Shown piece by piece: positions 1,095 through 63,802 of a stretch of DNA of 64,000 nucleotides. Made by a program: the position numbers and the translations under genes. Under the pieces are notes generated by a model. The model was not told the origin of the DNA. It did no database searches and saw nothing but the letters and a program-made list of their open reading frames with translations. Within the stretch, counting starts at the first letter, position 1. Every line of letters begins with the position of its first letter. The stretch lies in the NCBI GenBank assembly GCA_964545575.1, contig CAZJFL010000002.1, forward strand, positions 59,564 through 123,563, given 5' to 3'. The DNA comes from an uncultured Planctomycetales bacterium (lineage in GTDB: Bacteria; Omnitrophota; Gorgyraeia; Gygaellales; Profunditerraquicolaceae).

Positions 1095-1166
1095 GTGTCA
1101 AGGTATCAGGTGTCAAGGTATCAGACGTTACTTACTTTGACACTTTGATACTTGACACTTTGATAC
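1095..1166. repeat. Family A palindromic element built from GTGTCAAGGTATCA / TGATACnnTGACAC units
   Basis: GTGTCAAGGTATCAGGTGTCAAGGTATCAG-loop-TTTGACACTTTGATACTTGACACTTTGATAC, upstream of polX. Confidence 0.8.
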
Positions 1167-12627: not shown

Positions 12628-12632
12628 TTTGG

Positions 12633-12696
12633 CTTATCGCTTATCGCTTATCGCTTATCGTAGAACGATGTGCGATTTGCGATATGCGCTATGCGA
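12633..12696. repeat. Family B palindromic element, intergenic copy between dnaE and guaA
   Basis: GGCTTATCGCTTATCGCTTATCGCTTATCG-TAGAA-CGATGTGCGATTTGCGATATGCGCTATGCG. Confidence 0.85.
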
Positions 12697-15670: not shown

Positions 15671-15683
15671 TCACTTAAACAAA

Positions 15684-15716: not shown

Positions 15717-15744
15717 CTATGAACCCTGAACTCTAAAACCCTGT

Positions 15745-17408: not shown

Positions 17409-17477
17409 TGTGTCAAAGTGTCAGAGTATCAGGTATCAAAGTGCCATGACACCTTGACACTTTGATACTTTGACACC
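17409..17477. repeat. Family A palindromic element between groES and groEL
   Basis: GTGTCAAAGTGTCAGAGTATCAGGTATCAAAGTG...CACCTTGACACTTTGATACTTTGACAC. Confidence 0.8.
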
Positions 17478-19304: not shown

Positions 19305-19340
19305 GATAGTATCAAGGTATCAGGTGTCAAAGTATCATAG
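19305..19340. repeat. Family A element, partial or single-arm copy upstream of coaX
   Basis: TGATAGTATCAAGGTATCAGGTGTCAAAGTATCATA. Confidence 0.6.
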
Positions 19341-23959: not shown

Positions 23960-24026
23960 ATATCAAGGTATCAATGTGTCAATGTATCAAAAAACTTTGA
24001 TACTTTGATACATGACACTCTGATAC
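23960..24026. repeat. Family A palindromic element between yebC and rnpB
   Basis: ATATCAAGGTATCAATGTGTCAATGTATCAAAAAACTTTGATACTTTGATACATGACACTCTGATAC. Confidence 0.8.
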
Positions 24027-24036
24027 TTTTTTAAAA

Positions 24037-25662: not shown

Positions 25663-25736
25663 TGGGCGTAATAGGACTTGAACCTATGACCTCTACAATG
25701 TGAGTGTAGCGCTCTAACCAGCTGAGCTATACGCCC
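25663..25736 (-). tRNA. tRNA-Val (anticodon CAC)
   Basis: Manual cloverleaf fold: GGGCGTA acceptor, GCTC/GAGC D-stem, anticodon loop CTCACAT, T-loop TTCAAGT. CCA is not encoded. Confidence 0.85.
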
Positions 25737-25742
25737 TGTATT

Positions 25743-25807
25743 CGCTTATCGCTTAGCGCATATTGCTTATCGTCCAAACGATATGCGATTAGCCATATGC
25801 GATATGC
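25743..25807. repeat. Family B palindromic element, intergenic copy between two tRNA genes
   Basis: CGCTTATCGCTTAGCGCATATTGCTTATCG-TCCAAA-CGATATGCGATTAGCCATATGCGATATGC. Confidence 0.8.
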
Positions 25808-25814
25808 TAAACTC

Positions 25815-25887
25815 TGGGCCCGCAGGGATTTGAACCCCGGACCAAGTGATTATGAGTCACCTGCTCTGACCACTGAGCTACGGGCCC
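25815..25887 (-). tRNA. tRNA with CAT anticodon (elongator Met or Ile2/lysidine)
   Basis: Manual fold: GGGCCCG acceptor, anticodon loop CTCATAA, T-loop TTCAAAT. No initiator signatures. Confidence 0.8.
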
Positions 25888-34581: not shown

Positions 34582-35463
34582 TTAGATGACCTCTAAGCTT
34601 AAATCTACCGACTCCAGGGAATGGGTTAATTCGCCGATAGAAATAATATCTACCCCGCAGGAGGCGATTTTACGCACACTCTTTAAATCTACGCCGCCGG
34701 AGGTTTCTAGTTTAGTCCGAGGGTGGTGGCTGTTAAAGACAGTGTTATTTCTGATTTTTACCGCTTTTTTAATCTCGGCTAGGTCCATATTATCCAGCAT
34801 AATCACATCGGGTTTAAACCTGAGGGCATGCCTGAACTCATCGAGATTCTGTACTTCTATCTCTATTTTAAACCCTTTGGGCACGCTGGGCAGCCGGTCA
34901 TAACCTGCGGTGACTTTAATATGATTGTCCTTAATCAGAATCATCTCGTCTAAACCCATACGGTGATTGTATCCCCCGCCGATTCTTACGGCGTATTTCT
35001 GCAGTTCGCGCAGGCCAGGCATAGTTTTTCTGGTGTCGGTGATTTTTGTCTTATAGGGCTCTATCTTTCTGACGTATTCGCGGGTCTTAGTAGCCACTCC
35101 CGACATCATCGATATAAGATTAAGCGCTACTCTTTCTGCGGTTAAGATACTCCTGGCTTTTCCGGAAAGTTCGGTGATGATCTTGCCTTTTTGGGCAGGC
35201 TTGCCGTCTTTACTTAAGGGTTTAAAAGAAATGTCCTTATCTACCGCCTTAAACACGGCTTCGGCAACCTCCAGGCCGCAAATTATACAGTCTTCTCTGA
35301 CTAAAATTACGGCCTTAATCTCTTTATCTTCGGGAATAGTGAGCCGGGTAGTGATATCTCCTTTGCCGATATCCTCGATCAGCGCCTTGCGCACGATTAC
35401 TTCCAGCCTTGATTTTTCTATATGGGGAGCCGCATCCGAGAGAAAATATTTATCTAAAGCCAT
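34582..35463 (-). CDS. nadC: Nicotinate-nucleotide pyrophosphorylase (carboxylating)
   Basis: 293 aa, type II PRTase family pattern. Confidence 0.9.
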   Translation of the reverse strand: MALDKYFLSDAAPHIEKSRLEVIVRKALIEDIGKGDITTRLTIPEDKEIKAVILVREDCIICGLEVAEAVFKAVDKDISFKPLSKDGKPAQKGKIITELSGKARSILTAERVALNLISMMSGVATKTREYVRKIEPYKTKITDTRKTMPGLRELQKYAVRIGGGYNHRMGLDEMILIKDNHIKVTAGYDRLPSVPKGFKIEIEVQNLDEFRHALRFKPDVIMLDNMDLAEIKKAVKIRNNTVFNSHHPRTKLETSGGVDLKSVRKIASCGVDIISIGELTHSLESVDLSLEVI

Positions 35464-38299
35464 CTCTTGCCGCCTTTACTTTTTTTAAAGCTTCTTTTAG
35501 CTCCTCTAGTTTAGAGCTTTCTTTTGCTACGATCTCTTCCGGCGCCTTCTTTACAAACTCCTTATTCGCCAAAGTTTTTTCTTTGGCTTTTATTTCTGCT
35601 TCTACTTTAGCGATCCTGTCTTCTAGCTTAGCCTTTTCTTTTTCTATATCGATAACACCTTCTAGGGGAAGAGTGATATGCATGTCTTTGACAATAGCGC
35701 TGATACTGGATTTTATATGGGTATATTTTTGTTCTATATCGAGGCGGCTTAACTTAGCCAGTTTTTTGATCTGGGCAGACAGCCCGGAAACCAGTTCTCT
35801 TGTTTCCTTTGCTGCGCTTGAAATGATGGCGTTTATTTCCTCGTCCTGCGGGATATCCAGCTCCTGGCGCATATTTCTTATAGTGGTGATTGTCTCTAAA
35901 ATCAAGCTCATCCTCTCTTCTAATTTCTTATCGATTATTTGCTCCTGGATGTGCGGCGAGGGCTGAATGCTGATGGATTTCCCTTGATGAGGAAGCGCCT
36001 GCCAGACCTCTTCGCTAATAAAGGGCATAAAAGGATGGATTGCGCGCAGGAACTTTTCCAGCACCTTGTACATGACTACTTGGATTTGCGGATTTTTAAT
36101 ATCTGATTTAATCATCTCCAGGTACCAGTCGCAGAACTCATGCCAGAAGAAGCCGTATAAAAGGTTTGCCGCTTCGTTAAAACGGTAAGCCGCCAAATTA
36201 TTATTTACTTGCTTAAGCGTAGAATAAAATCTGCTTAAAATCCAGCGGTTAACTAAGCCAAATCCTTTATAAGGGGCTGTCCCCGCAGAAGGCGGGGCAC
36301 CAAACCATTCCCGCAAAGGCGGGACACCGACGCATCCTTTAGCGTCGGGTGCAGGTTTGGGTGCCTCCGTAATACCAAGATTCATCAGGATAAACCGGGA
36401 GGCGTTCCAGATTTTGTTGGCAAAGTTCCTTCCCTGTTCAAATCTTTCTTTGGAAAGATGCACATCCTGGCCCTGGGCCGTGATTGCAATCAGGCTGAAA
36501 CGCAGAGCATCGGCGCCGTATTCATTAATAATGTCCAGCGGGTCAATGATATTGCCCAGCGACTTGGACATCTTTTTGCCTTCGATATCGCGCACTGTGC
36601 CGTGGATATAGACATCCTTAAAGGGTATCTCTTTCATGAATTCCAGGCCCGCCATGATCATGCGCGCCACCCAGAAGAAAATGATTTCCGGAGCAGTAAC
36701 CAGAACCGAGGTAGGGTAAAAATAAGCTAAATCTTTTTGCTTATCGCTTATCGCTAATCGCTTATCGTCTTGCACGATATGCGATATGCGATATGCGCTA
36801 TGCTCGAATGGCCAGTAAAAGACCGCAAACGGCCACAGCCAGGAAGAAAACCAGGTATCCAGCACGTCTTCGTCCTGATAGATATCAGTCGAGCCGCAAT
36901 GTGGACACTTGTCGGGTTTAATTCTGGAAACTATAACTCCCTCCTGCTTATCGCTTATCGCTAATCGCTTATTGGCCTTTTGCGATATGCGATATGCGAT
37001 ATGCGATATGCAGTTCTTACAATAATAAACCGGCAACCTGTGCCCCCACCAGATCTGGCGCGAGATGCACCATTCTTGAATATTCTCCATCCAGTCCAAA
37101 TATACCTTAGTCCAGCGCTGCGGATAGAATTTAATTTTACCCTTTTTAACTGCCTCTATCGCCGGTTTTGCCAGCGACTGCATCTTCACAAACCATTGTT
37201 TGGATAAATACGGCTCAATAATGGTGTGGCAACGGTAACAATGGCCTGCGGATAACGGATGAGGTTCGACTTTTTCTAGCAATCCTTTTTCCTTTAAATC
37301 CTCCAGAATTACTTCCCGCGCCTGGAATCTATCCATATCTTTATAATCACCGGCAAACTCATTCATGCGTCCGTCAGGATGCATCACGTTGATAAACTCC
37401 AGCTTATGTTTCTTTCCTAAAAGATAGTCATTAGGATCGTGCGCCGGAGTTACCTTAACCGCACCTGTGCCAAATTTCATATCCACCAGGCTATCGGCAA
37501 TGATTTTTATCTGCCGGTTGATCAATGGTAAAATCAGGATTTTACCGACGAGTTTTTTATAGCGTTTATCTTTGGGGTTGACCGCAACGGCTGTATCTCC
37601 GAGCATGGTTTCCGGACGTGTAGTCGCTACTACGACATGATCAGGGACAGTCCCCTTCAGGGACAGTCCCTGTGCTTCCTTTAGCGGATACCTCAAGTAA
37701 TATAAATTTCCCTGCAATTCGTGGTGTGGCGCCTCTTCGTCAGAAAGGGCAGTCTGGCAGCGCGGGCACCAGTTGATGATGTAGCTGCCTCTATAAATCA
37801 GGCCCTTCTCGTATAATCTGACAAAAACTTCAATCACAGCTTGAGAGTATTCTTCATCCATGGTAAAGCGCGTACGCGACCAGTCGCAGGAAACACCTAG
37901 CTTCTTTAACTGATGAATTATAGTTACACCGTATTGCTCCTTCCATTGCCAGACCCGCGCAATGAATTTTTCCCGGCCTAAGTCCTGACGCTTCAGTCCT
38001 TCTTTGGCGATCGCCTTTTCTACCACATTTTGCGTAGCGATTCCGGCGTGGTCAGTTCCCGGCATCCAGAGGGATTCTTCGCCTTGCATGCGGTGATAAC
38101 GGATAAGGATATCCTGAATAGTGTTATTCAGGGCGTGTCCCATATGCAGAATCCCGGTAACATTTGGCGGCGGGATGACTATAGAGAAAGGCTTTTTTGC
38201 AGGGTCTGCTTTTGCGGCAAAAAGATTATTCTCTTCCCAGAATTTGTACCACTTCTCTTCGGTTTCCTTAGGGCTATATCGAGTAGGTATTTCATTCAT
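35450..38299 (-). CDS. valS: Valine--tRNA ligase carrying two in-frame palindromic-repeat insertions
   Basis: 949 aa class I aaRS with HIGH (ILHMGHALN), WCISRQ, the zinc knuckle CKNC...CPHCGS and KMSKS. Two ~66 bp repeat copies encode the extra peptides ...SHIAYRISQKANKRLAISDKQEG... and ...HSAYRISHIVQDDKRLAISDKQKD... Confidence 0.95.
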   Translation of the reverse strand: MNEIPTRYSPKETEEKWYKFWEENNLFAAKADPAKKPFSIVIPPPNVTGILHMGHALNNTIQDILIRYHRMQGEESLWMPGTDHAGIATQNVVEKAIAKEGLKRQDLGREKFIARVWQWKEQYGVTIIHQLKKLGVSCDWSRTRFTMDEEYSQAVIEVFVRLYEKGLIYRGSYIINWCPRCQTALSDEEAPHHELQGNLYYLRYPLKEAQGLSLKGTVPDHVVVATTRPETMLGDTAVAVNPKDKRYKKLVGKILILPLINRQIKIIADSLVDMKFGTGAVKVTPAHDPNDYLLGKKHKLEFINVMHPDGRMNEFAGDYKDMDRFQAREVILEDLKEKGLLEKVEPHPLSAGHCYRCHTIIEPYLSKQWFVKMQSLAKPAIEAVKKGKIKFYPQRWTKVYLDWMENIQEWCISRQIWWGHRLPVYYCKNCISHIAYRISQKANKRLAISDKQEGVIVSRIKPDKCPHCGSTDIYQDEDVLDTWFSSWLWPFAVFYWPFEHSAYRISHIVQDDKRLAISDKQKDLAYFYPTSVLVTAPEIIFFWVARMIMAGLEFMKEIPFKDVYIHGTVRDIEGKKMSKSLGNIIDPLDIINEYGADALRFSLIAITAQGQDVHLSKERFEQGRNFANKIWNASRFILMNLGITEAPKPAPDAKGCVGVPPLREWFGAPPSAGTAPYKGFGLVNRWILSRFYSTLKQVNNNLAAYRFNEAANLLYGFFWHEFCDWYLEMIKSDIKNPQIQVVMYKVLEKFLRAIHPFMPFISEEVWQALPHQGKSISIQPSPHIQEQIIDKKLEERMSLILETITTIRNMRQELDIPQDEEINAIISSAAKETRELVSGLSAQIKKLAKLSRLDIEQKYTHIKSSISAIVKDMHITLPLEGVIDIEKEKAKLEDRIAKVEAEIKAKEKTLANKEFVKKAPEEIVAKESSKLEELKEALKKVKAARDGFR
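36740..36804. repeat. Family B palindromic element (CTTATCG)n-loop-(CGATATG)n, copy inside valS
   Basis: GCTTATCGCTTATCGCTAATCGCTTATCG-TCTTGCA-CGATATGCGATATGCGATATGCGCTATGC. In frame in valS. Confidence 0.9.
36948..37012. repeat. Family B palindromic element, second copy inside valS
   Basis: GCTTATCGCTTATCGCTAATCGCTTATTGGCCTTTTGCGATATGCGATATGCGATATGCGATATGC. In frame in valS. Confidence 0.9.
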
Positions 38300-44787: not shown

Positions 44788-44804
44788 TTTAAGTAACTAG
44801 TAAA

Positions 44805-45434
44805 TTAGTAACTGGTAACTAGTAATTTTATTAAACGACCTGCTAATTCTTTTTTATTCTTTACCTTAATAATGCCGGATCCCCTGCCGATAATAAATGC
44901 CCGATAAGGATTAATCCTGTTTGCTACCACCACTTCGGCTTTTAGTTTCTGGCGCGCTAATTTTGCCCTTTGTATCAAAGCTTTATCGATGACCTGCGGC
45001 TCTAGCTTAAAGATGACTAATTTTGCCTTAGGGCTTGCTGCCCTGATTTCTCTGGCAATCTTAGGCAAAGGGGTTAACTTTAAAGTATGGCTTCTAAGGG
45101 AGGAAATCTTTCCCCCGGATCTCCTGACCGGTTTAAAATCAGAAACCGCGGCATTGTGCACGATAATATCGTATTTATTTATACGCAGCTCTTGTTTTAG
45201 CCGGTTTCTTAATTCATCAAAGAACTTAAAATTTACTAACCTGATGCGCTTATCTATAGAGCAAGAACTTACCGGGCCTAAGAATAAAGTTACGCGCGCG
45301 CCAAGTCTGGTTAATTTTTCCGCCAGTAAAATCCCGGTTTGGCCGCTTGCTATATTACTGATTACCCTGACGCTGTCTATCGGAACCCAAGTGGGGCCGG
45401 CGGTTATCAGAATCCTTTTATTTTTAAAACTCAT
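44805..45434 (-). CDS. coaB: Phosphopantothenate--cysteine ligase (stand-alone CoaB domain)
   Basis: 209 aa, ILITAGPTWVPIDSVRVISNIASGQTG matches the CoaB signature. No CoaC flavoprotein domain. Confidence 0.75.
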   Translation of the reverse strand: MSFKNKRILITAGPTWVPIDSVRVISNIASGQTGILLAEKLTRLGARVTLFLGPVSSCSIDKRIRLVNFKFFDELRNRLKQELRINKYDIIVHNAAVSDFKPVRRSGGKISSLRSHTLKLTPLPKIAREIRAASPKAKLVIFKLEPQVIDKALIQRAKLARQKLKAEVVVANRINPYRAFIIGRGSGIIKVKNKKELAGRLIKLLVTSY

Positions 45435-50791: not shown

Positions 50792-50856
50792 GTGTAAATT
50801 CGGCCATATAACTTACGTCGCCGCGGCTTGCTACATCGGCTCCGTAAGTTATGGCC
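50792..50856. repeat. Family C hairpin element between tRNA-Pro and tRNA-Tyr
   Basis: GGCCATATAACTTACG-loop-CGTAAGTTATGGCC with the same flanks (TTCGGCC ... CTCAtTTA) as the other copies. Confidence 0.8.
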
Positions 50857-50863
50857 TCATTTA

Positions 50864-51118: not shown

Positions 51119-51982
51119 CTAACTACATTTCTTTATCGCCTCTGGGATTTTAGCAATAATATCCGAGGCAATCAAGGAAATTTGCGTCTTCTCTTTAGCT
51201 GCTAAATCGCCGGCTAAACCGTGCAGATAAACCGCATATTTTGCCGCAGCAAACGCAGCCAAGCCCTGCCCTAAAAATGCGGCAATCATTCCGGTTAAAA
51301 CATCTCCGCTTCCTGCCGTGCTCATCCCGGGATTACCGGTCTTATTTATATATAATTTATTTTTATAATCGCTGACTACGGTATGATGCCCTTTCAGGAT
51401 AACGGTTAATTTATAATCCCGAGCAAATTTTTTGGTTATTTTATTTCTGGCGCCCTGAATCTTGGCTATGTTTGTCCCTAACAGCCTTGCCATCTCACCC
51501 GGGTGCGGGGTCAATACAGTTGACAGTTGACAATTGACAATTGACGCTAAGATATCCAAATGGCCGACTAAGGCATTCAATGCGTCAGCATCGATGACTA
51601 ACGGCTTGGCTATTTGCGATATAACCCTGCGTACTAACCCCTGCGTTTGCCGGTTCTGAGAAAGGCCGGGGCCGATTGCCAGAACATCAATATTTTTTGC
51701 AAAGTCTTTTATTCTTTGATAAGCGCCCGGCGCCAATGTCGCTTCTTTTGTCTCGGGAAGCGGCAACGTCATTACCTCCCGAGGCTTAATTCTCATTATC
51801 GCGGTATTCAAACTCTTAGGAATCCCCAACGTCACCAAACCTGCGCCCGTTCGCATAGCTGCCTCTGCGCATAAAACCGCGGCGCCCGAAAAGCGAGCGC
51901 AACCCGCTAAAATAAAAATGTGGCCGAAATCGCCTTTATGGGCGCCGGCTTTTCGGCGTAACAATCGCGAAGGCAGTCGCAT
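51119..51982 (-). CDS. nnrD: ADP-dependent NAD(P)H-hydrate dehydratase (YjeF C-terminal domain family)
   Basis: 287 aa, HKGDFGHIFILAGCARFSGAAVLCAEAAMRTGAGLVT carbohydrate-kinase-like pattern. Confidence 0.85.
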   Translation of the reverse strand: MRLPSRLLRRKAGAHKGDFGHIFILAGCARFSGAAVLCAEAAMRTGAGLVTLGIPKSLNTAIMRIKPREVMTLPLPETKEATLAPGAYQRIKDFAKNIDVLAIGPGLSQNRQTQGLVRRVISQIAKPLVIDADALNALVGHLDILASIVNCQLSTVLTPHPGEMARLLGTNIAKIQGARNKITKKFARDYKLTVILKGHHTVVSDYKNKLYINKTGNPGMSTAGSGDVLTGMIAAFLGQGLAAFAAAKYAVYLHGLAGDLAAKEKTQISLIASDIIAKIPEAIKKCS

Positions 51983-53040: not shown

Positions 53041-54249
53041 TCATGATTTATTTATCTGCTCCGCTACTCTTAACGCCTGTCGTACCGCTTTGACGTCATG
53101 GACCCTGACGATATGCGCTCCGTTTTGCGCCGCTAATACGCAGGCAGAAACCGTGCCGAAAACCCGCTCCTTTGGCGGAGCATTTAAAATCTTGCCGATA
53201 AAGGATTTTCTCGACGGGCCGACCAGTATCGGCATGCCTAAGGCCTTAAAGGCTTTAAGCTTCTTTAATATTTCCAGGTTCTGTTCCGGTAATTTTCCGA
53301 AGCCTATGCCCGGGTCGAGAATGATTTTTGCCTTATCTATGCCGGCAGAAACCGCCTTGCTTATCGCCTGATGGAAATATTCTATAATTTCATCGATTAA
53401 AGATTTATAAACCGGGTTTCTCTGCATGGTGCGCGGATTGCCCTTCATATGCATGATCACTATACCTGCCCTATACTTGGCAACGAGCCTGGTCATGGCA
53501 TTATTTCTTAATCCGGAAATATCGTTCACCATCACTGCCCCGCTATCTAAAGCCTGTTTGGCAACTTCGGGTTTATAGGTGTCTACTGAGATAGGCGCTT
53601 TTATTCTTTTAGACAATAGCTTTATTACGGGCACCACCCTGCTTATCTCTTCTTTTACGCCCACTGCTTTTGCCTGCGGGCGGCTGGATTCGCCTCCTAC
53701 GTCGATAATATCGGCACCGTCTTTAATTAATTGCCCCGCATACTCCAGAATATTAGCCTGGAGCCCGAAGCCCGAAGCCCGAAGTAAACCGTCTCCGCTA
53801 AAAGAATCGGGAGTAATATTCATCACCCCCATAATAGCGGTGCGCTTTGGATTTAAGTTCAACTTGTATCTACCTAAATCAATTCTGAAATTAGCTTTCT
53901 CGTAATTCTCTATTGCGGCTCCCAGCTCTTGAGCCAAAAGGCTCAAACCAAACGGCTGACGGTATAATTTCTGATTCAGGCGGTTAAACTGGGAAAGATT
54001 CCCCATTAACAGGCAGTCTGTTTTTTTGGCCCTGCCGGTCAGGGTATCGCGCGAAACTGCCGCATCAGCCCCCAGAGAAAGCATCTCCTGCTTTAAGATA
54101 TTGGCGGCAATACAGGATAAAGAACCGACTCTTATCAAATGCGTAATCGCCTTAGGGGCCATGATCTTAATGCCGTAAGAGTCGACCCTGATCTGGCGCA
54201 TGATTTGTCTTATCTCTTTAGAATCCGATATGGGTAGGATAGAGAGCAT
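53041..54249 (-). CDS. folP: Dihydropteroate synthase with a ~130 aa N-terminal extension domain
   Basis: C-terminal 270 aa is a pterin-binding DHPS (GVMNITPDSFSGDG...DIIDVGGESSRP). The N-terminal 130 aa is of unassigned function. Confidence 0.85.
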   Translation of the reverse strand: MLSILPISDSKEIRQIMRQIRVDSYGIKIMAPKAITHLIRVGSLSCIAANILKQEMLSLGADAAVSRDTLTGRAKKTDCLLMGNLSQFNRLNQKLYRQPFGLSLLAQELGAAIENYEKANFRIDLGRYKLNLNPKRTAIMGVMNITPDSFSGDGLLRASGFGLQANILEYAGQLIKDGADIIDVGGESSRPQAKAVGVKEEISRVVPVIKLLSKRIKAPISVDTYKPEVAKQALDSGAVMVNDISGLRNNAMTRLVAKYRAGIVIMHMKGNPRTMQRNPVYKSLIDEIIEYFHQAISKAVSAGIDKAKIILDPGIGFGKLPEQNLEILKKLKAFKALGMPILVGPSRKSFIGKILNAPPKERVFGTVSACVLAAQNGAHIVRVHDVKAVRQALRVAEQINKS

Positions 54250-57542: not shown

Positions 57543-57767
57543 CTTGCGAAAATTTGGTGGCGACGAGTATGCACTCCTGAACTAGAATCACAGAGTGCCA
57601 CTCGCATGGGCAATTTTGCCGATTACTTAAAATGCAAGCGAAATTGGTGGCGGCGGGTGGATCCCCGCTATATCATCTTAGTTCCGCTAGCGGGGTCCCG
57701 CTCTCATTTTAAATCGCTTAGCGGGAAAACCACCTCGGTGGACGCTCCCACCCGATGCTAATAAAAA

Positions 57768-57841
57768 TGGCGGCGGGTGGATTTAAACCACCGACTTATC
57801 GGGTATGAGCCGACTACTCTATCGGGCTGAGTTACGCCGCC
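57768..57841 (-). tRNA. tRNA with CAT anticodon (Met or Ile2)
   Basis: Manual fold: GGCGGCG acceptor, anticodon loop CTCATAC, T-loop TTTAAAT. Followed downstream by partial duplicates of its 3' end. Confidence 0.75.
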
Positions 57842-57860
57842 ATTTCAAAATATTATAATA

Positions 57861-58649
57861 CTATCTTTTACGGTAGGCGTCAAGATAGGAATCGCAATAT
57901 ATTTGCTTATTCAGGATCAATTCTGCGGTAATCGCGGCATCCATCAATTGCGCATCTTTAGGGTCCAGTATCGCCGCATCTAATCCAAAGGTGATGGCCA
58001 TGGTCAGGAATGTGCGGTTAATGAGATTACGCACGCAGGCGCCCTGCGAAACATTGCTTAATCCGACGATGGTTTTGGGGCTGGGGTCGGAAATAATCTT
58101 AAACTCATGAATCACCTCTAAAATATCGCGCATCTGGGCCTGCGCGACATTAACCGGCATCACTATCGGGTCAAGGTAAAGGTCATCTATCGGAAATCCC
58201 TGATCCGAGCAGCAAGCTACGATTGTGGCGGCCAACTCCAGCCTCTGGTCCTTATTCTGCGGTATGCCTTTGGTGCTGATAGTGAGCCCGATTAGTTTAG
58301 CATGATATTTTTTGGCTAAAGGCACCAGCACTTCCAGTTTTTCCGGGTCGGCGGTGGTAGAATTGATGATGGCTTTATTTTTTATAACCTTTAATCCGGA
58401 TTCGATGACCTCGGGCTTGCTGGAATCTATGGCTAAAGGGCTATCTGTGACTTCCTGTATGGTTTGCGCCAACCACTGAATATCCGAGATCGGCTCGCGC
58501 GAAGCCGGGCCGCAATTGATATCCAAGGCATCTGCCCCGCATTTAATCTGCTCCATAGCGCATTTCTGGATAGTCACCTTATCTTTCTCTTTTATCGCCC
58601 TGCCGATATCTTTATACATCCCGTTAATTAGTTCACCAATAATAAACAT
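57861..58649 (-). CDS. acsE: Methyltetrahydrofolate:corrinoid/iron-sulfur protein Co-methyltransferase
   Basis: 262 aa pterin-binding TIM barrel. Closely parallels Moorella AcsE along its whole length (IIGE.INGM...ALD.N.GP...INST...DP...GLSNVSQ...NRTFL). Confidence 0.93.
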   Translation of the reverse strand: MFIIGELINGMYKDIGRAIKEKDKVTIQKCAMEQIKCGADALDINCGPASREPISDIQWLAQTIQEVTDSPLAIDSSKPEVIESGLKVIKNKAIINSTTADPEKLEVLVPLAKKYHAKLIGLTISTKGIPQNKDQRLELAATIVACCSDQGFPIDDLYLDPIVMPVNVAQAQMRDILEVIHEFKIISDPSPKTIVGLSNVSQGACVRNLINRTFLTMAITFGLDAAILDPKDAQLMDAAITAELILNKQIYCDSYLDAYRKR

Positions 58650-58665
58650 AAGTACACTCCTAATT

Positions 58666-58788
58666 TTAAACTCTAAACCCTAAACACTAAATCCTAAACA
58701 AATCCAAAACCCAAAATACAAAACGTTTTGAGTTTTTTAGTTTTGAATTTTGAGTTTGTTTAGAGTTTAGGATTTCGGATTTAGGATT
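58666..58788. repeat. Long imperfect palindrome (~60 nt arms) made of AAACCCTAAA / TTTAGG(G/A)TTT-like units, centred on AAAACGTTTT
   Basis: Intergenic between acsE and acsD. The left arm is rich in CTAAA(C/T)CC units and the right arm carries the mirror TTTAGGATTT units. Confidence 0.8.
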
Positions 58789-59716
58789 TATATAAATCTC
58801 CTATGTATTTGTTTACTTTTTCTATAGCCAAGGGATGCCGCATTACTAAAATATCCGCGCCGGCCTGAATTAAAGCCGTGGCAGTAATCACTTCCCACAT
58901 TATCCCCTGCTCTGCTTCTGCCTTAGCTTCTTTTGCCCGCCAGGATTCCTGCCCCGCAAAACAAATAAAAGGACTGGCTACGGTTTTATCACCGGCTAAG
59001 GCAGCTAAACGCGCCCGCTCCATAATCGAATAGGCGTATTCCAAACCGTAACCTAAAGCGCCGATGGTAGGATTAATCACGATCCGTTCCAGCGGCAGGC
59101 TCATATCGGAAATCAGAATATTCAGTTGTTTGGCAATATTTATGTCTATGGGCGACTCCGCGATAAGATTATGCCCGTCGGCTAACACTGCCGCCGCCAG
59201 AGTCTTATAATTATCCTGCGCGGCGCAACCGACAAGGCAACGCTCTCCTTTTGCCGCTTCGCAGACCGCCGGTAATACCAGATTGTCTTTTTCGTCATCG
59301 CCGCATCCGACGATGATCAAAGGCACTCCTACCTTTTTTAATAATTGCCTGACGAGATCCGCTTCTGCCTCAGGGGTCTTATTGCCGAAATCCGGATGCG
59401 CGCCTTGAAGCCTCAAACATAGAAGCCCTGTCCTATGCTTTTCTACGCACATTTGCGCCCAGGTAAGCGGGTCTTTTAAACTATCGCCGTAAGCGCCTGC
59501 CAATTCCTGCGGCCAATCACCAGGGATAACATCCCAGATTTCGGAAGCGATTACCGGCGGGTAAGGCAAATTGCCTTCGGCGAATAAAAACGGCAGGGCT
59601 CTCTGTCCCCCGACCCCGATGGTTCCCTGGCGGCTGCCGCCTTCGGCTTTCTGGGAGCCGATAGTCACTACTGCCACTTCCCCGGACCACTTTTCCATAA
59701 TCGATTCTAATGCCAT
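58781..59716 (-). CDS. acsD: Corrinoid iron-sulfur protein small subunit (CODH/ACS delta subunit)
   Basis: 311 aa. Aligns along its length with Moorella AcsD (GG..ALPF...VVGCGD.EKD..VL..V...NIIA.SP.DIN..KQLNIL...LP...IV.DP..G.LGYG.EY..SIMER.RL.AL.GDK). Confidence 0.93.
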   Translation of the reverse strand: MALESIMEKWSGEVAVVTIGSQKAEGGSRQGTIGVGGQRALPFLFAEGNLPYPPVIASEIWDVIPGDWPQELAGAYGDSLKDPLTWAQMCVEKHRTGLLCLRLQGAHPDFGNKTPEAEADLVRQLLKKVGVPLIIVGCGDDEKDNLVLPAVCEAAKGERCLVGCAAQDNYKTLAAAVLADGHNLIAESPIDINIAKQLNILISDMSLPLERIVINPTIGALGYGLEYAYSIMERARLAALAGDKTVASPFICFAGQESWRAKEAKAEAEQGIMWEVITATALIQAGADILVMRHPLAIEKVNKYIGDLYKS

Positions 59717-60453
59717 ATCTTTTCTCCTAATTTACGCAAGAGCTCTAAGCTTGGCGCGTTACCTTTTAGCTTAAGCAAAGAATTGCCGTTTAGGCTGATT
59801 TTGCTGATTTGCTTATCTTCAGGAATATGCCCGATATACTCCAGGTCTATTCCTTTTAGTTTTTCCTTTTCGATATCACAGGCGTAGCGGTTAACCAACA
59901 AAAGATTTTTCTTTGTCTTGATATCCAGCTCTTTGACTAAATCCCTGATTCTTTTTACCGCCCTCAGGCCTACCGGTGTCGCGTCGGAAACCGCCAATAA
60001 TACGTCCGCAGCGCGCGTAGTCCGGCGGGAAAGGTGCTCTAAACCAGCCTCATTATCAATAACGATATAGTCATAGTCGGTAATCAGCCGAGACATGACA
60101 TTACGCAACACATTATTGACGTAACAATAACAACCCGGGCCTTCCGGCTTACCCATGGTTAATAAATCAAACCCCTCTGCTTCCTCTATCGCCATCTGCA
60201 CCTGGTAATCAATAAACCTCTCCTTTGACATGCCTTCGGGCACACTCTCGGGATTAGCGGCAATGGCGTCGAGAATTGAGCCGATACTCTTTTTTACCTC
60301 TAGGCCTAAGGCCTCACCGAGGTTACTGTTCGGGTCGGCATCTATGGCTAAAACAGAGCCCTTTTTGTGCATCTTTAAGGCTCTGACCAAAAGCGCAGCC
60401 ACGGTAGTTTTACCTGTGCCGCCCTTGCCTGCGATTGCGATCACGTAGCCCAT
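59707..60453 (-). CDS. cooC: CODH/ACS nickel-insertion accessory ATPase CooC/AcsF
   Basis: 248 aa MinD/ParA-type ATPase with deviant Walker A AGKGGTGKTT. Confidence 0.88.
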   Translation of the reverse strand: MGYVIAIAGKGGTGKTTVAALLVRALKMHKKGSVLAIDADPNSNLGEALGLEVKKSIGSILDAIAANPESVPEGMSKERFIDYQVQMAIEEAEGFDLLTMGKPEGPGCYCYVNNVLRNVMSRLITDYDYIVIDNEAGLEHLSRRTTRAADVLLAVSDATPVGLRAVKRIRDLVKELDIKTKKNLLLVNRYACDIEKEKLKGIDLEYIGHIPEDKQISKISLNGNSLLKLKGNAPSLELLRKLGEKIWH

Positions 60454-62379
60454 CTATATTTTTACGCTAGGGAATCTTCTTAAATCCGTATGCGGAAAGA
60501 AAAGCGCCGCCATATATTCATCCATATAATCCGGGTCCACCGATAATTCAAAATAAGTCACTTTTTTGGCGATGGCATCGGCTTTTCTTCTGGCCTCTTC
60601 CGACAAGAGCATCTGCCGGGCGCCGGCTAAAGAACTGTTACCCACAAAGATAAAACGGGATTTTTCCAAATCCGGAAGCAATCCTATGGCAATGGCATTA
60701 GGAACGTCTATCGATGTTCCGAATGCGCCGGCAATGAAAAACTTCTTTACCTGCGCGAAATCCAGACGCATATGCCTGATTAAACTGGCAGTGGCAGAAT
60801 AAATCGCAGCCTTGGCGCGTTTAAGATTATCGATATCGGCCTCGGTAATCACTATATCAACAGCGGTATCAGTTTCTTCTTTGAATGCGATTACAAATTC
60901 TCTGCCGGCTTCGCTATTTCTCACCCGTTTATTCTGGATGGGCTTAATCTTGCCGTCTTTATCTAAGATGCCTACACGCAGCATTTCTGCGATAATCTCA
61001 ATGTAGCCTGAGCCGCAGATGCCGCGCGGCTTAGCGCCTCCGATAGTGGTATAATTAACCTTAAAATCTTGGGGGTTTATTTTTGCCTTCTGTATAGCTG
61101 CCCGTCCGGCGCGCATGCCGCTTGATACTCCGCTCCCTTCAAAAGCCGGCCCCGCAGAGGCAGCGCAGGCAATAAAAAACTCTTTGTTGCCCAAGGCGAT
61201 TTCGCCGTTAGTGCCGATATCAATTAAAACGCACAAATCTTCTTCCCGCTCTAATCCGCAGGACAAAATCCCGGCGGTAATATCGCCGCCGACGTAACTG
61301 GCTACTCCCGGAACGCAAGTAAGCAGGCCTTTGGGATTAATCTTTATCCCTGCTTCAGAGGCCCGGATTGCGGGAATAAAGTTTGCCGTGGGCACATACG
61401 GCTCTTTGCGGATATAAGTAGGGTCAATACAGAGCAAAAGATGGATCATCGTGGTATTTCCGGCGCACAAGACGCAGGTTACATCATTTAAATCAATATG
61501 GTGTTCCTTAACCAGCTCATGAATTATCTGTTCTATACAGTCTGCTACCGCCAGATGCAGATCTTCCAGGCCCTCCTGCTCTTTGGCATAGATAATCCGC
61601 GTAATCACGTCGCTGCCAAAAGCAATCTGTTTGTTATAGGTGGCCTTGGTGCCTAAGGTTTCCCCGGAGTTTAAATCGACTAATTGGCCGGTGATGGTGG
61701 TGGTCCCGATATCAAAACAGAAACCGAAATTTTTTAGAGAGGTATTCCCCGGCTCGATAAGCAATATTTCTGACATCGCGTCCTTATCGCCTACGGTTAC
61801 AGTGACCTTCCATTCGCAGGAACGCAACAATTCGCTTAACTCCCGGACATTGGTTAATCCCGTATGTATCCGGGGCATCTCTTTAACCCGCTTTATCTGA
61901 CGGACCAGCCTCTCTAAATCGCTGATTTTATCGTCGAGGTTTGGCTGGGGTATCTCTAAATATAATTTTATGGTCAGCGGTGCCTGCTTAAAGATACCGG
62001 ATACGATAGCCTTCTCTGCCTCTACCTCCTCTGATTCGCCGTAAATCCCCTTTGCCTTCTGATGGATTTCTTCCGGAGTCAATCCCTCTAAGCTTAACCT
62101 AGATTCAGGCGGAATTTCTACTTCCAAGTCGCTGTGGACGGTGGTCAGGCAGGCAAGATATATTCCTTTCTTGCGTTCATCCAAACTGATGATTCCCGTA
62201 GGCTGGGTCAAAACCTTGCCTTTTTTAACAATTACTTTGCATCTGCCACAAACGCCGTCTCCGCCGCAGACAGAATTAATATAGGCCCCGGCCGTAATCG
62301 CCGCCGCTAAAATCGTCGTATCCTTGGCGACTTCTACAGACTTATTATCGGGCCAGAATGTAACGCGGAATTTTTCCAT
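60454..62379 (-). CDS. Reductive activator of corrinoid iron-sulfur protein (RACo): [2Fe-2S] ferredoxin domain plus ASKHA ATPase domain
   Basis: 641 aa. N-terminal plant-type 2Fe-2S Cys pattern (CGGDGVCGRCKV), C-terminal ASKHA domain. Same position as orf7/RACo in the Moorella acs operon. Confidence 0.8.
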   Translation of the reverse strand: MEKFRVTFWPDNKSVEVAKDTTILAAAITAGAYINSVCGGDGVCGRCKVIVKKGKVLTQPTGIISLDERKKGIYLACLTTVHSDLEVEIPPESRLSLEGLTPEEIHQKAKGIYGESEEVEAEKAIVSGIFKQAPLTIKLYLEIPQPNLDDKISDLERLVRQIKRVKEMPRIHTGLTNVRELSELLRSCEWKVTVTVGDKDAMSEILLIEPGNTSLKNFGFCFDIGTTTITGQLVDLNSGETLGTKATYNKQIAFGSDVITRIIYAKEQEGLEDLHLAVADCIEQIIHELVKEHHIDLNDVTCVLCAGNTTMIHLLLCIDPTYIRKEPYVPTANFIPAIRASEAGIKINPKGLLTCVPGVASYVGGDITAGILSCGLEREEDLCVLIDIGTNGEIALGNKEFFIACAASAGPAFEGSGVSSGMRAGRAAIQKAKINPQDFKVNYTTIGGAKPRGICGSGYIEIIAEMLRVGILDKDGKIKPIQNKRVRNSEAGREFVIAFKEETDTAVDIVITEADIDNLKRAKAAIYSATASLIRHMRLDFAQVKKFFIAGAFGTSIDVPNAIAIGLLPDLEKSRFIFVGNSSLAGARQMLLSEEARRKADAIAKKVTYFELSVDPDYMDEYMAALFFPHTDLRRFPSVKI

Positions 62380-62405
62380 TTCTAAGTAAATATATTATTT
62401 TTTTT

Positions 62406-62471
62406 TTGCGGGTGACGCGGGGATGCCTCGAGCCAAATTTGGCGAGAGGCGCCCCGCGGCAGGACCCGCAA
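62406..62471. other. GC-rich 66 nt imperfect hairpin preceded by a T11 run, between acsC and the RACo gene
   Basis: TTGCGGGTGACGCGGGGATGCCTCG...CGAGAGGCGCCCCGCGGCAGGACCCGCAA. The outer 8 bp and inner 6 bp arms are exactly complementary. Confidence 0.7.
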
Positions 62472-62473
62472 AA

Positions 62474-63802
62474 CTATAAGTTTTTCAAAAATGAGGGGAT
62501 TCCGGCGGCTTCTTTGGGGCCGACGACGATCTTCCAGCCGGCCTGCTCTTCCAGATCCCCGCTCATCACCGCCACATAGCCGGGTATGATCAGGCGATTA
62601 TGCTTAACTGCGTCTTGAACCGAAAACTTATTTAACGATTCCGAGATCTTCTCAGGCGTAAACTTCTCTGCTGCCCAGGCAGTCAGCACTGACATCCCTT
62701 CCGTATCCACGCTTAAAATATAGGATGGGATCTTGCTTGCCTCCACTTCTCCTAATACCGTGTAATAAGTAAGTGAGAAGTTGGTGGTGACCAGAACCGG
62801 CGATTTGTCATTCGCCTGGCCTACGGCATAAAGCTTAGGCTCAATCTGCAAAGGCTTTTGCGGGTCAGTGTAAATATTCTGCCGCAAGGTCAAAAGCGCT
62901 AATATTTCCCAGGCTTCGATGCCTCCAAGTAATACAATACCGGCATATTTGGCAATAAAAGTGGCTGCCTCCATTGCTTCCAGGTAAGGATCGGCTTTAT
63001 CGACGATGGCCAAAACCGGAAACCCAAGGCTACGGTTAGATTTTTTAAGCGCCTGGCGCCTGATTTGCGTTAAATCCCAGATTTTTTCTGAAATTGATTT
63101 TAGGCCGGTATCTAAAACTAAATCCGCTACTGCCTGTTTATTTAATTCCTGGGTTAAAGTAGTGAGTTCATCCAGGCTATTTGCCGAAACTACCAACGGC
63201 ACTTTAAACTCCTGCGCCAGCTTGGAAATTTCTGCCAGATTTTCTCCTGTAGCATGATAAACTAACGGCTTCTTATCTTTTGAAATCTCTAAAGCCTGCC
63301 TTAAGGCGGTTAAATCATCGCTCATTAAGACTAAACCAAGCTTGGTATTATTTAAGACGAGCTTGACTGCTTCGGTAAATCTTTCTTTATTTCTTATCTG
63401 TTTTATGGCGACTAAATTGACCTCTAACGCCTGGCCCACCCGCTCAAAGGACAGCTTGTTGATACGCTCTAATTTCTCTTTTATTTCGCTATCCGCCAAG
63501 CCGTCCTCGATGATAAACCCGATTCCCGCTGGATGGTGAAACTTTTCTTCGTGGCGGAATAAGACGGCCTCATTGCCAACCTCTAATTTATTATCACCGG
63601 CGCCGATAGTGATTAATTTTATTGGCGGCTGAGCAGAGGCCTCCAGGATCTTCTTTGACTCTACGGTTACATAAGGGCACTTTTCCAGGGCAATCGCTTT
63701 TTTAGCTAACTGCATGGCAAAGGCGAGACAAGTGGCAAACCCGCATTCGCGGCAATTGGTTTTGGGTAATAATTTGTAGATATCCAGTCCCGAGAGGGCC
63801 AT
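62474..63802 (-). CDS. acsC: Corrinoid iron-sulfur protein large subunit (CODH/ACS gamma subunit)
   Basis: 442 aa. N-terminal 4Fe-4S Cys motif CRECGFATCLAFAM. Closely parallels Moorella AcsC throughout (NFSLTYY.V.GE.E..KIPSY.LSVDT.G.SVLTA). AAGGAG RBS upstream. Confidence 0.93.
   Translation of the reverse strand: MALSGLDIYKLLPKTNCRECGFATCLAFAMQLAKKAIALEKCPYVTVESKKILEASAQPPIKLITIGAGDNKLEVGNEAVLFRHEEKFHHPAGIGFIIEDGLADSEIKEKLERINKLSFERVGQALEVNLVAIKQIRNKERFTEAVKLVLNNTKLGLVLMSDDLTALRQALEISKDKKPLVYHATGENLAEISKLAQEFKVPLVVSANSLDELTTLTQELNKQAVADLVLDTGLKSISEKIWDLTQIRRQALKKSNRSLGFPVLAIVDKADPYLEAMEAATFIAKYAGIVLLGGIEAWEILALLTLRQNIYTDPQKPLQIEPKLYAVGQANDKSPVLVTTNFSLTYYTVLGEVEASKIPSYILSVDTEGMSVLTAWAAEKFTPEKISESLNKFSVQDAVKHNRLIIPGYVAVMSGDLEEQAGWKIVVGPKEAAGIPSFLKNL

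What the first reader, a model, noticed from the sequence alone, without database searches (positions are those of the whole stretch)
58666..58788. Long imperfect palindrome of telomere-like TTTAGG(G/A)TTT units between acsE and acsD
The 131 bp acsE-acsD spacer is almost entirely a two-armed inverted repeat centred on AAAACGTTTT. The left arm is built from CTAAACCC / CTAAATCC / CAAAACCC units and the right arm from the mirror TTTAGGATTT / TTTGAGTTT units. This resembles degenerate (TTTAGGG)n.

As RNA it would form a ~55 bp hairpin with many G-U pairs and bulges, sitting inside the acs operon. It could serve as an RNase processing or stability determinant that sets the stoichiometry of AcsE against the upstream genes. 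It could also be a protein-binding array.

Nothing like it is found in the other acs-operon spacers in this window, which are 0-95 bp long.
Basis: seen in the sequence. Interest (0 to 1): 0.55.

Follow-up and report, generated by a model that had tools for sequence, protein, structure and literature searches.

The report
Heptamer-repeat hairpin between acsD and acsE
The gap between two genes of the carbon-fixing acs operon of an uncultured Omnitrophota bacterium is filled by a 124-base imperfect hairpin built from 7-base repeats; it is real, but it looks like a young, dispensable repeat expansion, one of many such hairpins in this genome, not a conserved regulator or anything telomere-like.

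Summary
The 131-nt acsD-acsE spacer (genes on the minus strand) is almost entirely a two-armed quasi-palindrome of 7-nt units. As mRNA it folds at -42.5 kcal/mol (z = -5.4).

It is not unique and not conserved. The 64-kb window holds at least eight other hairpins whose arms are tandem 7-8-nt units. They lie at groES|groEL, guaA|dnaE, panE|polX, rnpB|yebC and tRNA-Met|tRNA-Val, twice in frame inside valS, and probably in helix P12 of RNase P RNA. Period-7 tandem arrays number 17, against 1.25 expected.

Across about 60 Omnitrophota acs operons this junction is either tight (-10 to +25 nt) or filled with unrelated structured inserts. In the closest clade, one lineage has a 57-nt, two-unit version of the same element. 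Its sister lineage has a 1-nt spacer.

There is no significant sense-strand G-U excess, no promoter or terminator consensus, and no Rfam family. The acsE Shine-Dalgarno stays outside the stem.

Best reading: a lineage-specific heptanucleotide repeat that became an inverted duplicate and expanded by slippage at a permissive junction. At most it has a REP-like passive effect on mRNA decay or processing.

The telomere resemblance is superficial.

The parts
58781..59716 (-). acsD (small CdhD-family subunit of the corrinoid Fe-S protein), the upstream cistron. It ends ...DLYKS-TAA, and its last two codons plus the stop lie inside the first repeat unit.
   Evidence: ORF list. Pfam CdhD E = 7e-34. 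Codon reading.
58650..58780 (-). The 131-nt acsD-acsE intercistronic spacer.
   Evidence: Identical in six assemblies.
58725..58790 (-). 5' arm in mRNA sense, C/A-rich. Units: TCCTAAA, TCCGAAA, TCCTAAA, CTCTAAA, then an irregular CAAA, then CTCAAAA, TTCAAAA, CTAAAAAA, CTCAAAA.
   Evidence: TRF period 7. Unit parsing.
58720..58729 (.). Perfect 10-nt palindrome AAAACGTTTT at the geometric centre. The apical loop varies with pairing register.
58667..58724 (-). 3' arm in mRNA sense, G/U-rich. Units: TTTTGTA, TTTTGGG, TTTTGGA, then an irregular TTTG, then TTTAGGA, TTTAGTG, TTTAGGG, TTTAGAG, TTTAAAA. It mirrors the 5' arm, including the irregular partial unit, but is offset by one unit.
58657..58661 (-). 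acsE Shine-Dalgarno AGGAG, inside TTAGGAG, which resembles one more repeat unit. It lies just outside the stem, 7 nt before the ATG at 58647-58649.
   Evidence: Sequence. Mean unpaired probability 0.64. Conserved as ATAGGAG in L077.
57861..58649 (-). acsE (methyl-H4folate:corrinoid Fe-S protein methyltransferase), the downstream cistron.
   Evidence: Pfam Pterin_bind and CdhD. Sources name homologues as this methyltransferase.
57767..57842 (-). tRNA-Met gene 18 nt downstream of the acsE stop.
   Evidence: A tRNA-like sequence with a CAT anticodon sits at the same place in L077 (read by eye; no tRNA scan run on L077).
62380..62473 (-). acsC-RACo spacer: a GC-rich hairpin flanked by T4 and A10. 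It is the second structured junction of this operon and is a different type (no tandem units).
   Evidence: z = -7.0.
17410..17477 (-). Same class, family A (GTRTCAAR / YTTGAYAC units), in the groES-groEL spacer.
1095..1166 (-). Same class, family A, between panE and polX.
23961..24029 (-). Same class, family A, between the RNase P RNA gene and yebC.
12632..12696 (-). Same class, family B (GCATATC x4, loop, GATAAGC x4), between guaA and dnaE.
25742..25807 (-). Same class, family B, between tRNA-Met and tRNA-Val.
36739..36803 (-). Same class, family B, in frame inside valS (peptide ..SHIAYRISQKANKRLAISDKQ..).
36946..37011 (-). Same class, family B, second in-frame copy inside valS (..HSAYRISHIVQDDKRLAISDKQ..).

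Best explanation
The element is a lineage-specific compound heptanucleotide-repeat quasi-palindrome.

Proposed origin:
1. A short tandem array of 7-nt units arose next to the acsE ribosome-binding site. The unit TTTAGGA is close to TTAGGAG, which holds the Shine-Dalgarno.
2. The array became an inverted duplicate.
3. Both arms then grew and shrank independently by replication slippage and picked up point mutations. They are now 74% complementary.

Why here: acsD|acsE is one of two 'soft' junctions of the operon. The cistrons there are not translationally coupled, so extra sequence does no harm as long as the stop codon and the Shine-Dalgarno survive. Both do.

It is one member of a genome-wide population of hairpins with tandem 7-8-nt arms in a genome strongly enriched for period-7 repeats.

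Its inevitable consequence is a stem-loop of about 50 bp in the acs mRNA, running from the acsD stop codon to about 6 nt before the acsE Shine-Dalgarno. The most likely effect, if any, is passive and REP-like: a barrier to 3'-to-5' exonucleases, or a double-strand-specific cleavage site, that partly uncouples acsE mRNA from the upstream cistrons.

Shown: the structure, its periodicity, its class membership, and its gain, size change and loss among relatives. Inferred: the origin steps and any effect on RNA.
For: Real and non-random:
-.

A class, not a singleton:
- TRF plus folding finds eight tandem-unit hairpins in 64 kb, and one more in 9 kb of adjoining genome.
- Only 7 were found in 970 kb from about 65 other Omnitrophota species.
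- Period-7 arrays number 17, against 1.25 in dinucleotide shuffles (maximum 4). Other periods are at expectation.

Not conserved:
- Of 61 acsD|acsE junctions, 34 are 25 nt or shorter and 13 exceed 60 nt, with unrelated inserts.
- By acsE nucleotide identity the tree is (window,(L076,L077)) at 83% and 92%.
- L077-L080 carry a 57-nt spacer whose flanks match the outer units of both arms. For example GTTTAGAATTTAGAAATAGGAGT matches GTTTAGAGTTTAAAATTAGGAGT.
- L076 has 1 nt.
- L081, L082, L205 and L206 have 2-3 nt, and L207 has an unrelated 121-nt insert.

Arms share ancestry, then slipped:
- Both arms contain the same irregular CAAA/TTTG partial unit between two sub-arrays, but with 4+4 units against 5+3.

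Permissive junction:
- Spacers over 60 nt occur at acsC|RACo in 16 of 48 loci and at acsD|acsE in 13 of 61. At RACo|cooC it is 4 of 45, and at cooC|acsD 0 of 48.
- Most long spacers are strongly structured.
- In L007 and L014 the inserts are copies of a local GGGTGTCCC repeat that also sits at another junction of the same operon.

No sign of RNA-level selection:
- G-U-type mismatches number 7 in sense against 4 in antisense.
- Other class members fold equally well or better on the antisense strand.

Other points:
- The Shine-Dalgarno is left free.
- There is no promoter or terminator consensus and no Rfam family above threshold.
- Family B copies sit in frame in valS and tgt, and a similar hairpin appears to lie in rnpB. 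This shows such hairpins arise at DNA level wherever they are tolerated.
Against: - Two of the 7 tandem-unit hairpins found in other species also sit at this very junction (L009, L024). Many lineages have independently acquired structured inserts here. That could reflect convergent selection for a hairpin rather than mere tolerance.
- The sense strand of this particular hairpin is 8 kcal/mol more stable than the antisense strand.
- The element has persisted since before an 83%-identity split, so it is not just a strain-level accident.
- Only about 78 kb of this genome could be read, so other copies of the C-type unit elsewhere (a mobile family) are not excluded.
- No expression data were available.
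Confidence: 0.6

Rival explanations
1. A selected cis-acting RNA element. The stem-loop would be an RNase III-type processing site or a 3'-exonuclease barrier, maintained because it sets the ratio of AcsE to the upstream acs products.
For: - The fold is very stable, sits exactly between the stop codon and the Shine-Dalgarno, and leaves the Shine-Dalgarno open.
- The sense strand folds better than the antisense strand.
- Structured inserts recur at this junction and at acsC|RACo in many lineages.
- Two other tandem-unit hairpins sit at the same junction, in L009 and L024.
- REP hairpins are known to stabilise upstream mRNA in E. coli (established knowledge; REP roles in mRNA turnover are summarised in the abstract of PMC3479197).
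Against: - It is absent from the sister lineage L076 (1-nt spacer) and from over half of all Omnitrophota acs operons.
- The sequence is unrelated between lineages.
- There is no significant sense-strand G-U excess (7 against 4).
- The same architecture occurs in coding DNA and between tRNAs, where this function cannot apply.
Confidence: 0.2
2. A copy of a dispersed, mobile REP/MITE-like element. It would have been inserted ready-made and spread by a hairpin-recognising enzyme, and did not grow in place.
For: - Families A and B in the same window are clearly dispersed, with sharp ends and unrelated flanks.
- All family B copies have the same orientation relative to transcription, and no target duplication is visible. 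That pattern is typical of HUH/RAYT-type mobilisation (the link to HUH enzymes is inference).
- Relatives carry local REP-like repeats at this junction.
Against: - The C-type unit occurs nowhere else in the window, in 14 kb of adjoining genome, or in about 1 Mb of related loci.
- L077 has a shorter homologue with the same flanks. That fits size change in place.
- The arms differ in unit count.
- No transposase or RAYT domain was found among the roughly 60 genes of the window.
Confidence: 0.12
3. A DNA-level protein-binding array or a telomere-related sequence of TTTAGGG-like sites.
For: - It consists of repeated 7-nt units.
- One unit is exactly TTTAGGG.
Against: - It is internal to a bacterial operon.
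- Units are degenerate, and the inner half is TTTTGRR.
- The arms are mirror images, which suits a hairpin rather than phased binding.
- It is absent in relatives.
- There are only two GGG runs, so it cannot form a G-quadruplex.
- No candidate binding protein is encoded nearby.
Confidence: 0.03

Closest known systems
Repetitive extragenic palindromes (REP, BIME, REPIN) of Proteobacteria
   Same: - Imperfect palindromes that fill spaces between co-directional genes.
- They form stem-loops in the transcript and vary in presence between close relatives.
- They can act as passive barriers to mRNA decay.
- In L007 and L014 the same junction is occupied by a genuine dispersed palindromic repeat.
   Different: - REPs are 20-40 nt, occur in tens to hundreds of near-identical copies, and are linked to RAYT transposases (PMC2817692, PMC3116915).
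- This element is 124 nt and single-copy as far as could be seen.
- It has a 7-nt internal periodicity, and no RAYT is in view.
Long simple sequence repeats of heptanucleotides (Mrazek et al. 2007, as summarised in PMC4679880); cyanobacterial heptamer repeats; TAACTGA repeats of Beggiatoaceae
   Same: - Tandem 7-nt units, strongly over-represented in the genome.
- Mostly intergenic and placed immediately upstream of start codons.
- Function unknown; slippage is the presumed origin (PMC4679880; bioRxiv 10.1101/2022.06.06.494920).
   Different: - Those arrays are direct repeats. In the Beggiatoa genome 169 sets are direct and only one is inverted.
- Here the array is paired with its own inverted copy, so the product is a long hairpin.
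Rickettsia palindromic elements and other palindromic repeats that insert in frame into genes
   Same: Relevant to the class rather than to the acs copy. Family B hairpins sit in frame in valS (twice) and tgt and add about 21 residues to surface loops.
   Different: - No sequence relationship.
- Much shorter (about 65 nt).
- The arms are tandem heptamers.
Intercistronic stabilising stem-loops in polycistronic mRNAs (E. coli malE-malF REPs, Rhodobacter puf operon hairpins)
   Same: Position between cistrons, and the likely physical consequence for segmental mRNA stability. This rests on established knowledge and was not tested here.
   Different: Those were shown experimentally to set differential expression and are conserved in their lineages. 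This one is dispensable among close relatives.
Plant-type telomere repeat (TTTAGGG)n
   Same: One exact unit, and a T3-A-G-rich 7-nt period.
   Different: It is not terminal, not a perfect array and not single-orientation, and it is in a bacterium.

Membership tests
REP / BIME / REPIN | Short (about 20-40 nt) imperfect palindrome in extragenic DNA | tested here: not met
   It is extragenic and palindromic, but the arms are 57-65 nt each (124 nt in all) and are internally periodic.
REP / BIME / REPIN | Many near-identical copies dispersed in the genome | tested here: inconclusive
   No second C-type copy in the 64-kb window, in 14 kb of adjoining genome, or in related loci. The rest of the genome could not be read.
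REP / BIME / REPIN | Associated RAYT (Y1/HUH) transposase gene | tested here: inconclusive
   No transposase domain in any of the roughly 60 window genes. A whole genome is needed.
Heptanucleotide long simple sequence repeats | Tandem 5-11-nt units in runs longer or more frequent than chance allows in that genome | tested here: met
   Period-7 arrays in both arms. There are 17 period-7 arrays in the window against 1.25 in shuffles. Period 7 is also the modal period across 1 Mb of Omnitrophota loci.
Intrinsic (Rho-independent) terminator | GC-rich stem followed directly by a U-run | tested here: not met
   No terminator-like site in the spacer. The stem is AU-rich and is followed by UUUAAAAUUAGGAG.
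MITE | Terminal inverted repeats flanked by a target-site duplication; related to an IS element | tested here: not met
   No duplication is visible at the ends of the C element or of the six family B copies. No IS is in view.
Telomeric (TTTAGGG)n | Long, near-perfect, single-orientation array at a chromosome end | tested here: not met
   There is one exact unit. The arms are inverted, and it lies inside an operon.
Curated RNA families (Rfam 15) | Score at or above the family gathering threshold | tested here: not met
   Nothing at gathering thresholds. In E-value mode the only hits are generic plant miRNA-precursor hairpins, at 40.7 bits or less against thresholds of 83 or more.
Conserved cis-regulatory RNA of the acs operon | Presence at the orthologous site in relatives, with structure-preserving substitutions | tested here: not met
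   The spacer is 1-3 nt in L076, L081, L082, L205 and L206. Only L077-80 share a rudiment. Other lineages have unrelated inserts or none.

The most novel reading that the evidence does not exclude
The acs hairpin would be the visible tip of an undescribed class of Omnitrophota repeat elements: hairpins whose two arms are tandem 7-8-nt units.

These elements would arise or propagate at DNA level and settle in every tolerated niche:
- intercistronic spacers just upstream of ribosome-binding sites;
- tRNA spacers;
- helix P12 of RNase P RNA;
- in frame, surface loops of essential enzymes (ValRS, Tgt).

Family B shows a fixed orientation relative to transcription and a conserved one-mismatch-per-unit asymmetry. 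Both hint at a strand-specific propagation mechanism, either single-stranded-DNA/HUH-like or RNA-mediated, rather than simple slippage.
Probability: 0.3. Interest if true: 0.6.

Novelty: new variant of a known kind. Interest (0 to 1): 0.35.

Why it matters
For the acs operon itself it matters little. The hairpin is dispensable, so it should not be annotated as a conserved regulator of Wood-Ljungdahl gene expression.

The wider pattern is more interesting. This uncultured Omnitrophota genome is saturated with heptamer repeats that pair into hairpins. Such hairpins sit even inside valS, tgt and probably rnpB.

- It is a natural system for studying how simple-sequence slippage and palindrome formation create REP-like elements from scratch.
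- It shows how such elements are filtered by what each site tolerates: stop codons, Shine-Dalgarno sequences, reading frame.
- It is also a practical warning for annotating and assembling these genomes.

Tried and rejected
- **Self-BLAST survey for inverted repeats.** The first run lost self-overlapping hits. The repaired run still missed the mismatch-rich family B. I replaced it with TRF-array pairing plus folding.
- **Homology between the window element and the L009 hairpin at the same junction.** The local alignment score beat all but 13 of 1000 arm-wise shuffles. This is suggestive only, because both are A/T-rich repeats, so I did not use it.
- **Strand asymmetry as a test for RNA-level selection.** There is no consistent signal.
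- **Promoter and terminator consensus scan and Rfam in both modes.** Nothing relevant came up.
- **Search for C-type units in the window and in all loci.** They occur only in the element itself.
- **The one metagenome scan.** I spent it on the family B unit. It showed that (GCGATAA)n direct arrays are widespread in contigs of 31-67% GC, so the unit is not organism-specific. Only 2 of 83 hits were B-type hairpins. No control heptamer could be scanned, so the breadth cannot be interpreted.
- **Population variation in unit number.** All six assemblies are one clone at 99.99% identity or more, so this could not be assessed.
- **Literature searches.** No description of tandem-armed hairpins or of Omnitrophota repeats turned up in the held library.
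- **Other readings.** CRISPR, iterons, G-quadruplex and a small ORF were considered and dropped on sequence grounds.

Full report
**What is there**

All genes around the finding are on the minus strand. Pfam assigns, in transcription order:

| Feature | Coordinates |
|---|---|
| AcsC (CdhD + FeS) | 62474-63802 |
| RACo activase | 60454-62379 |
| CooC-like ATPase | 59707-60453 |
| AcsD (small CdhD) | 58781-59716 |
| AcsE (pterin-binding methyltransferase) | 57861-58649 |
| tRNA-Met | 57767-57842 |

After these come tilS, ftsH and folP.

- The repeat finder gives two 57-nt arms that are 74% complementary.
- TRF gives period-7 arrays in both arms.
- AAAACGTTTT sits at 58720-58729.
- As RNA in the sense of the mRNA, the region folds at -42.5 kcal/mol, z = -5.4. 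None of 200 dinucleotide shuffles folds as well. The opposite strand gives -34.5 kcal/mol, z = -4.7, and single-stranded DNA gives z = -3.5.
- The sequence is identical in six independent assemblies of the same clone, so it is not an assembly artefact.

**Anatomy**

Read in mRNA sense, the 5' arm is TCCTAAA, TCCGAAA, TCCTAAA, CTCTAAA, CAAA, CTCAAAA, TTCAAAA, CTAAAAAA, CTCAAAA. The reverse complement of the 3' arm is (CTCCTAA), TTTTAAA, CTCTAAA, CCCTAAA, CACTAAA, TCCTAAA, CAAA, TCCAAAA, CCCAAAA, TACAAAA.

- Each arm is a compound array: outer TTTAGGA-type units and inner TTTTGRA-type units, separated by the same irregular 4-nt partial unit.
- The unit counts differ between the arms: 4+4 against 5+3. 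The arms were therefore once mirror copies of an already compound array, and have since gained or lost units independently.
- The first unit overlaps the last two codons and the TAA stop of acsD.
- The last 'unit' of the 3' arm, TTAGGAG, holds the acsE Shine-Dalgarno. It lies outside the stem, with unpaired probability 0.64.
- Of the 15 mismatches in the ungapped arms, 7 would be G-U in the sense RNA, 4 would be G-U in the antisense RNA, and 4 are neither. That is not a significant strand preference.
- The spacer has no promoter-like or terminator-like site.
- There is no Rfam match at gathering thresholds. The only sub-threshold hits are to generic plant miRNA-precursor hairpins.

**It is one of many**

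TRF on the whole window shows a striking excess of period-7 arrays: 17 against 1.25 in dinucleotide shuffles (maximum 4). Other periods are at expectation. Many of these arrays come in adjacent, mutually complementary pairs that fold into hairpins.

- **Family A** (GTRTCAAR units): 1095-1166 between panE and polX, 17410-17477 between groES and groEL, and 23961-24029 between the RNase P RNA gene and yebC. There is also a half copy at 19309-19337.
- **Family B** (GCATATC x4, loop, GATAAGC x4): 12632-12696 between guaA and dnaE, 25742-25807 between tRNA-Met and tRNA-Val, and 36739-36803 and 36946-37011.

- A further type (GTTCAKA / CTGAAC) lies in the 9 kb left of the window, again just upstream of a Shine-Dalgarno.
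- The predicted P12 region of the RNase P RNA is itself a hairpin of CGCAAAA/TTTTGCG units, and aligns poorly to the Rfam model there.
- The same TRF-plus-folding pipeline found only 7 such hairpins in 970 kb from about 65 other Omnitrophota species. This genome is unusually rich in them.
- Two of those 7 (L009, L024) are also at the acsD|acsE junction.

**Family B shows these hairpins are DNA-level events**

- The four copies have sharp common ends, unrelated flanks, variable loops, and a conserved one-mismatch-per-unit asymmetry.
- The two copies at 36.7-37.0 kb lie inside the 949-residue valS ORF and are read in frame.
- Thermus ValRS lacks the second segment entirely and most of the first. 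The closest homologues (83-88% identity) lack both.
- A metagenome scan for the unit found two more B-type hairpins. Both are in frame at the same site of tgt, in two different organisms, and encode the same HIAY..SHIV..KRLAISDKQ peptide.
- Coding copies carry a GATTAGC variant that removes the in-frame TAA.

Hairpins of this kind therefore appear wherever the site tolerates them. That argues against reading any one of them as a purpose-built RNA signal.

**Relatives**

AcsE identifies the organism as Candidatus Omnitrophota. I looked at 61 acsD|acsE junctions.

- The spacer is 25 nt or shorter in 34 junctions, often with overlap or 1-3 nt, and longer than 60 nt in 13.
- The long spacers are unrelated in sequence and mostly strongly structured.
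- In L007 and L014 the inserts are copies of a GGGTGTCCC palindromic repeat that also occupies another junction of the same operon.
- The same holds for acsC|RACo, where 16 of 48 spacers exceed 60 nt. In contrast RACo|cooC (4 of 45) and cooC|acsD (0 of 48, median -10) stay tight.
- So the operon has two permissive junctions and two coupled ones. The finding sits at a permissive one.

In the closest clade:

- acsE nucleotide identities give (window,(L076,L077)) at 83% and 92%.
- L077-L080 have a 57-nt spacer, ATCATAAATTCTAATGCTCCAAAC-TAGTAA-GTTTAGAATTTAGAAATAGGAG. Its ends are homologous to the outer units of the window element, with two units per arm.
- L076 has a 1-nt spacer, but carries a different tandem-unit hairpin (CACGGATAA units) immediately upstream of acsD.
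- More distant relatives have 2-3 nt, or an unrelated 121-nt insert.

Most parsimoniously, a short heptamer inverted repeat existed in the ancestor of this clade. It expanded to about nine units per arm in the window lineage and was lost in L076.

**Interpretation**

The best-supported account is mutational, not regulatory. The genome is prone to heptanucleotide slippage, a known property of some bacterial genomes (Mrazek et al. 2007, as summarised in PMC4679880). An array was seeded beside, and perhaps from, the acsE ribosome-binding heptamer. It was then duplicated in inverted orientation, and the arms expanded where nothing constrains spacer length.

Template switching at quasi-palindromes is the established mechanism for the inverted duplication. 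I did not test it here.

The stem-loop will exist in the mRNA. By analogy with REP hairpins it may slow 3'-exonucleolytic decay of the acsC-acsD segment, or offer a double-strand cleavage site. Loss in a sister lineage and absence from most acs operons show the pathway does not depend on it.

I give this account 0.6. A selected processing or stability element gets 0.2. It is kept alive by the recurrence of structured inserts at this junction and by the 8 kcal/mol sense-strand advantage. A transposed copy of a dispersed family gets 0.12, because only about 78 kb of the genome was visible. Protein-binding or telomere-like readings are negligible.

**Comparison with known systems**

- It behaves like a REP element but fails REP membership on size, and shows no further copies or RAYT in the roughly 78 kb read.
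- It is a member of the broad category of heptanucleotide simple-sequence repeats. It differs from the described cases (cyanobacterial heptamers, Beggiatoaceae TAACTGA), which are direct arrays.
- Searches of the held literature found no description of hairpins with tandem-repeat arms, nor of repeats in Omnitrophota. That library is incomplete.

**Verdict**

I rate it a new variant of a known kind. Interest is modest for the acs locus itself and somewhat higher for the genome-wide class, especially the in-frame copies in valS and tgt.

Noticed in passing
window 36739-36803 and 36946-37011 (inside valS, 35450-38299, minus strand): Two family B heptamer hairpins are read in frame within valyl-tRNA synthetase and add about 21 residues each (..HIAYRIS..KRLAISDKQ..). 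Thermus ValRS and the closest homologues (83-88% identity) lack them. Other relatives have different insertions in the same two loops.
   Followed up: yes
L125 (minus strand, about 13791) and L141:3579: B-type hairpins with the same arm asymmetry are inserted in frame at the same site of tgt (queuine tRNA-ribosyltransferase) in two different metagenomic organisms (GC 0.53 and 0.44). They encode the same peptide motif as the valS inserts.
   Followed up: partly
window 25742-25807: A family B hairpin fills the spacer between the tRNA-Met (25815-25887) and tRNA-Val (25663-25736) genes.
   Followed up: partly
window 24222-24295 (inside the RNase P RNA gene, 24036-24429): The region aligned to helix P12 of bacterial RNase P RNA is a long hairpin of tandem CGCAAAA / TTTTGCG units. 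It aligns poorly to the Rfam model, as if a tandem-unit hairpin had replaced or extended this variable helix.
   Followed up: partly
window 17410-17477; 1095-1166; 23961-24029; 19309-19337: Family A hairpins (GTRTCAAR units) lie in the groES-groEL spacer, between panE and polX, and between rnpB and yebC. The groES-groEL and rnpB-yebC copies end 15-25 nt before a Shine-Dalgarno; no clear one follows the panE-polX copy. A half copy lies at the aminotransferase/coaX junction.
   Followed up: partly
window 62380-62473: The acsC-RACo spacer is a GC-rich 30-bp hairpin flanked by TTTT and A10. In the mRNA sense the A-run follows the stem, so it looks like a terminator for the opposite strand. In L077 this junction has grown to 512 nt of nested hairpins.
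   Followed up: partly
window 9100-9190, 15400-15740, 50795-50863: This is another dispersed palindromic family (..CATAAGTTATGGAG ... GACATAACTTATG..). It lies between hup and dnaE, downstream of groEL (with several further GC-rich hairpins, -136 kcal/mol over 360 nt), and near the tRNA-Tyr gene.
   Followed up: no
window 7744-7771, 51516-51545, 53762-53784, 44792-44825: Perfect or near-perfect heptamer tandem arrays of 3-4.7 units lie inside or at the edges of coding genes: hisS, the NAD(P)H-hydrate dehydratase gene, folP, and the coaBC/gpmI junction.
   Followed up: no
L083-L162 (metagenome scan): Exact (GCGATAA)n arrays occur in more than 119 metagenome contigs from soil, marine, freshwater and gut samples, with GC from 31 to 67%. 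Almost all are direct arrays, some mixing GCGATAA, GCGATAT and GCGATAC units. No control heptamer could be scanned.
   Followed up: partly
L076:365-475: The sister lineage that lacks the acsD-acsE hairpin has a tandem-unit hairpin (CACGGATAA / TTATCCGTG units, -42 kcal/mol) immediately upstream of acsD. In the window that junction (cooC-like|acsD) is a 10-nt overlap.
   Followed up: partly
window 57767-57842: A tRNA-Met gene lies 18 nt after the acsE stop on the same strand. A tRNA-like sequence with a CAT anticodon sits at the same place in L077 (read by eye), so the acs transcript may run into a tRNA that needs processing.
   Followed up: no
window 1-64000: Essentially every gene and RNA gene in the 64 kb is on the minus strand: about 60 ORFs, 7 tRNAs and rnpB. 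No mobile-element gene is among them.
   Followed up: no
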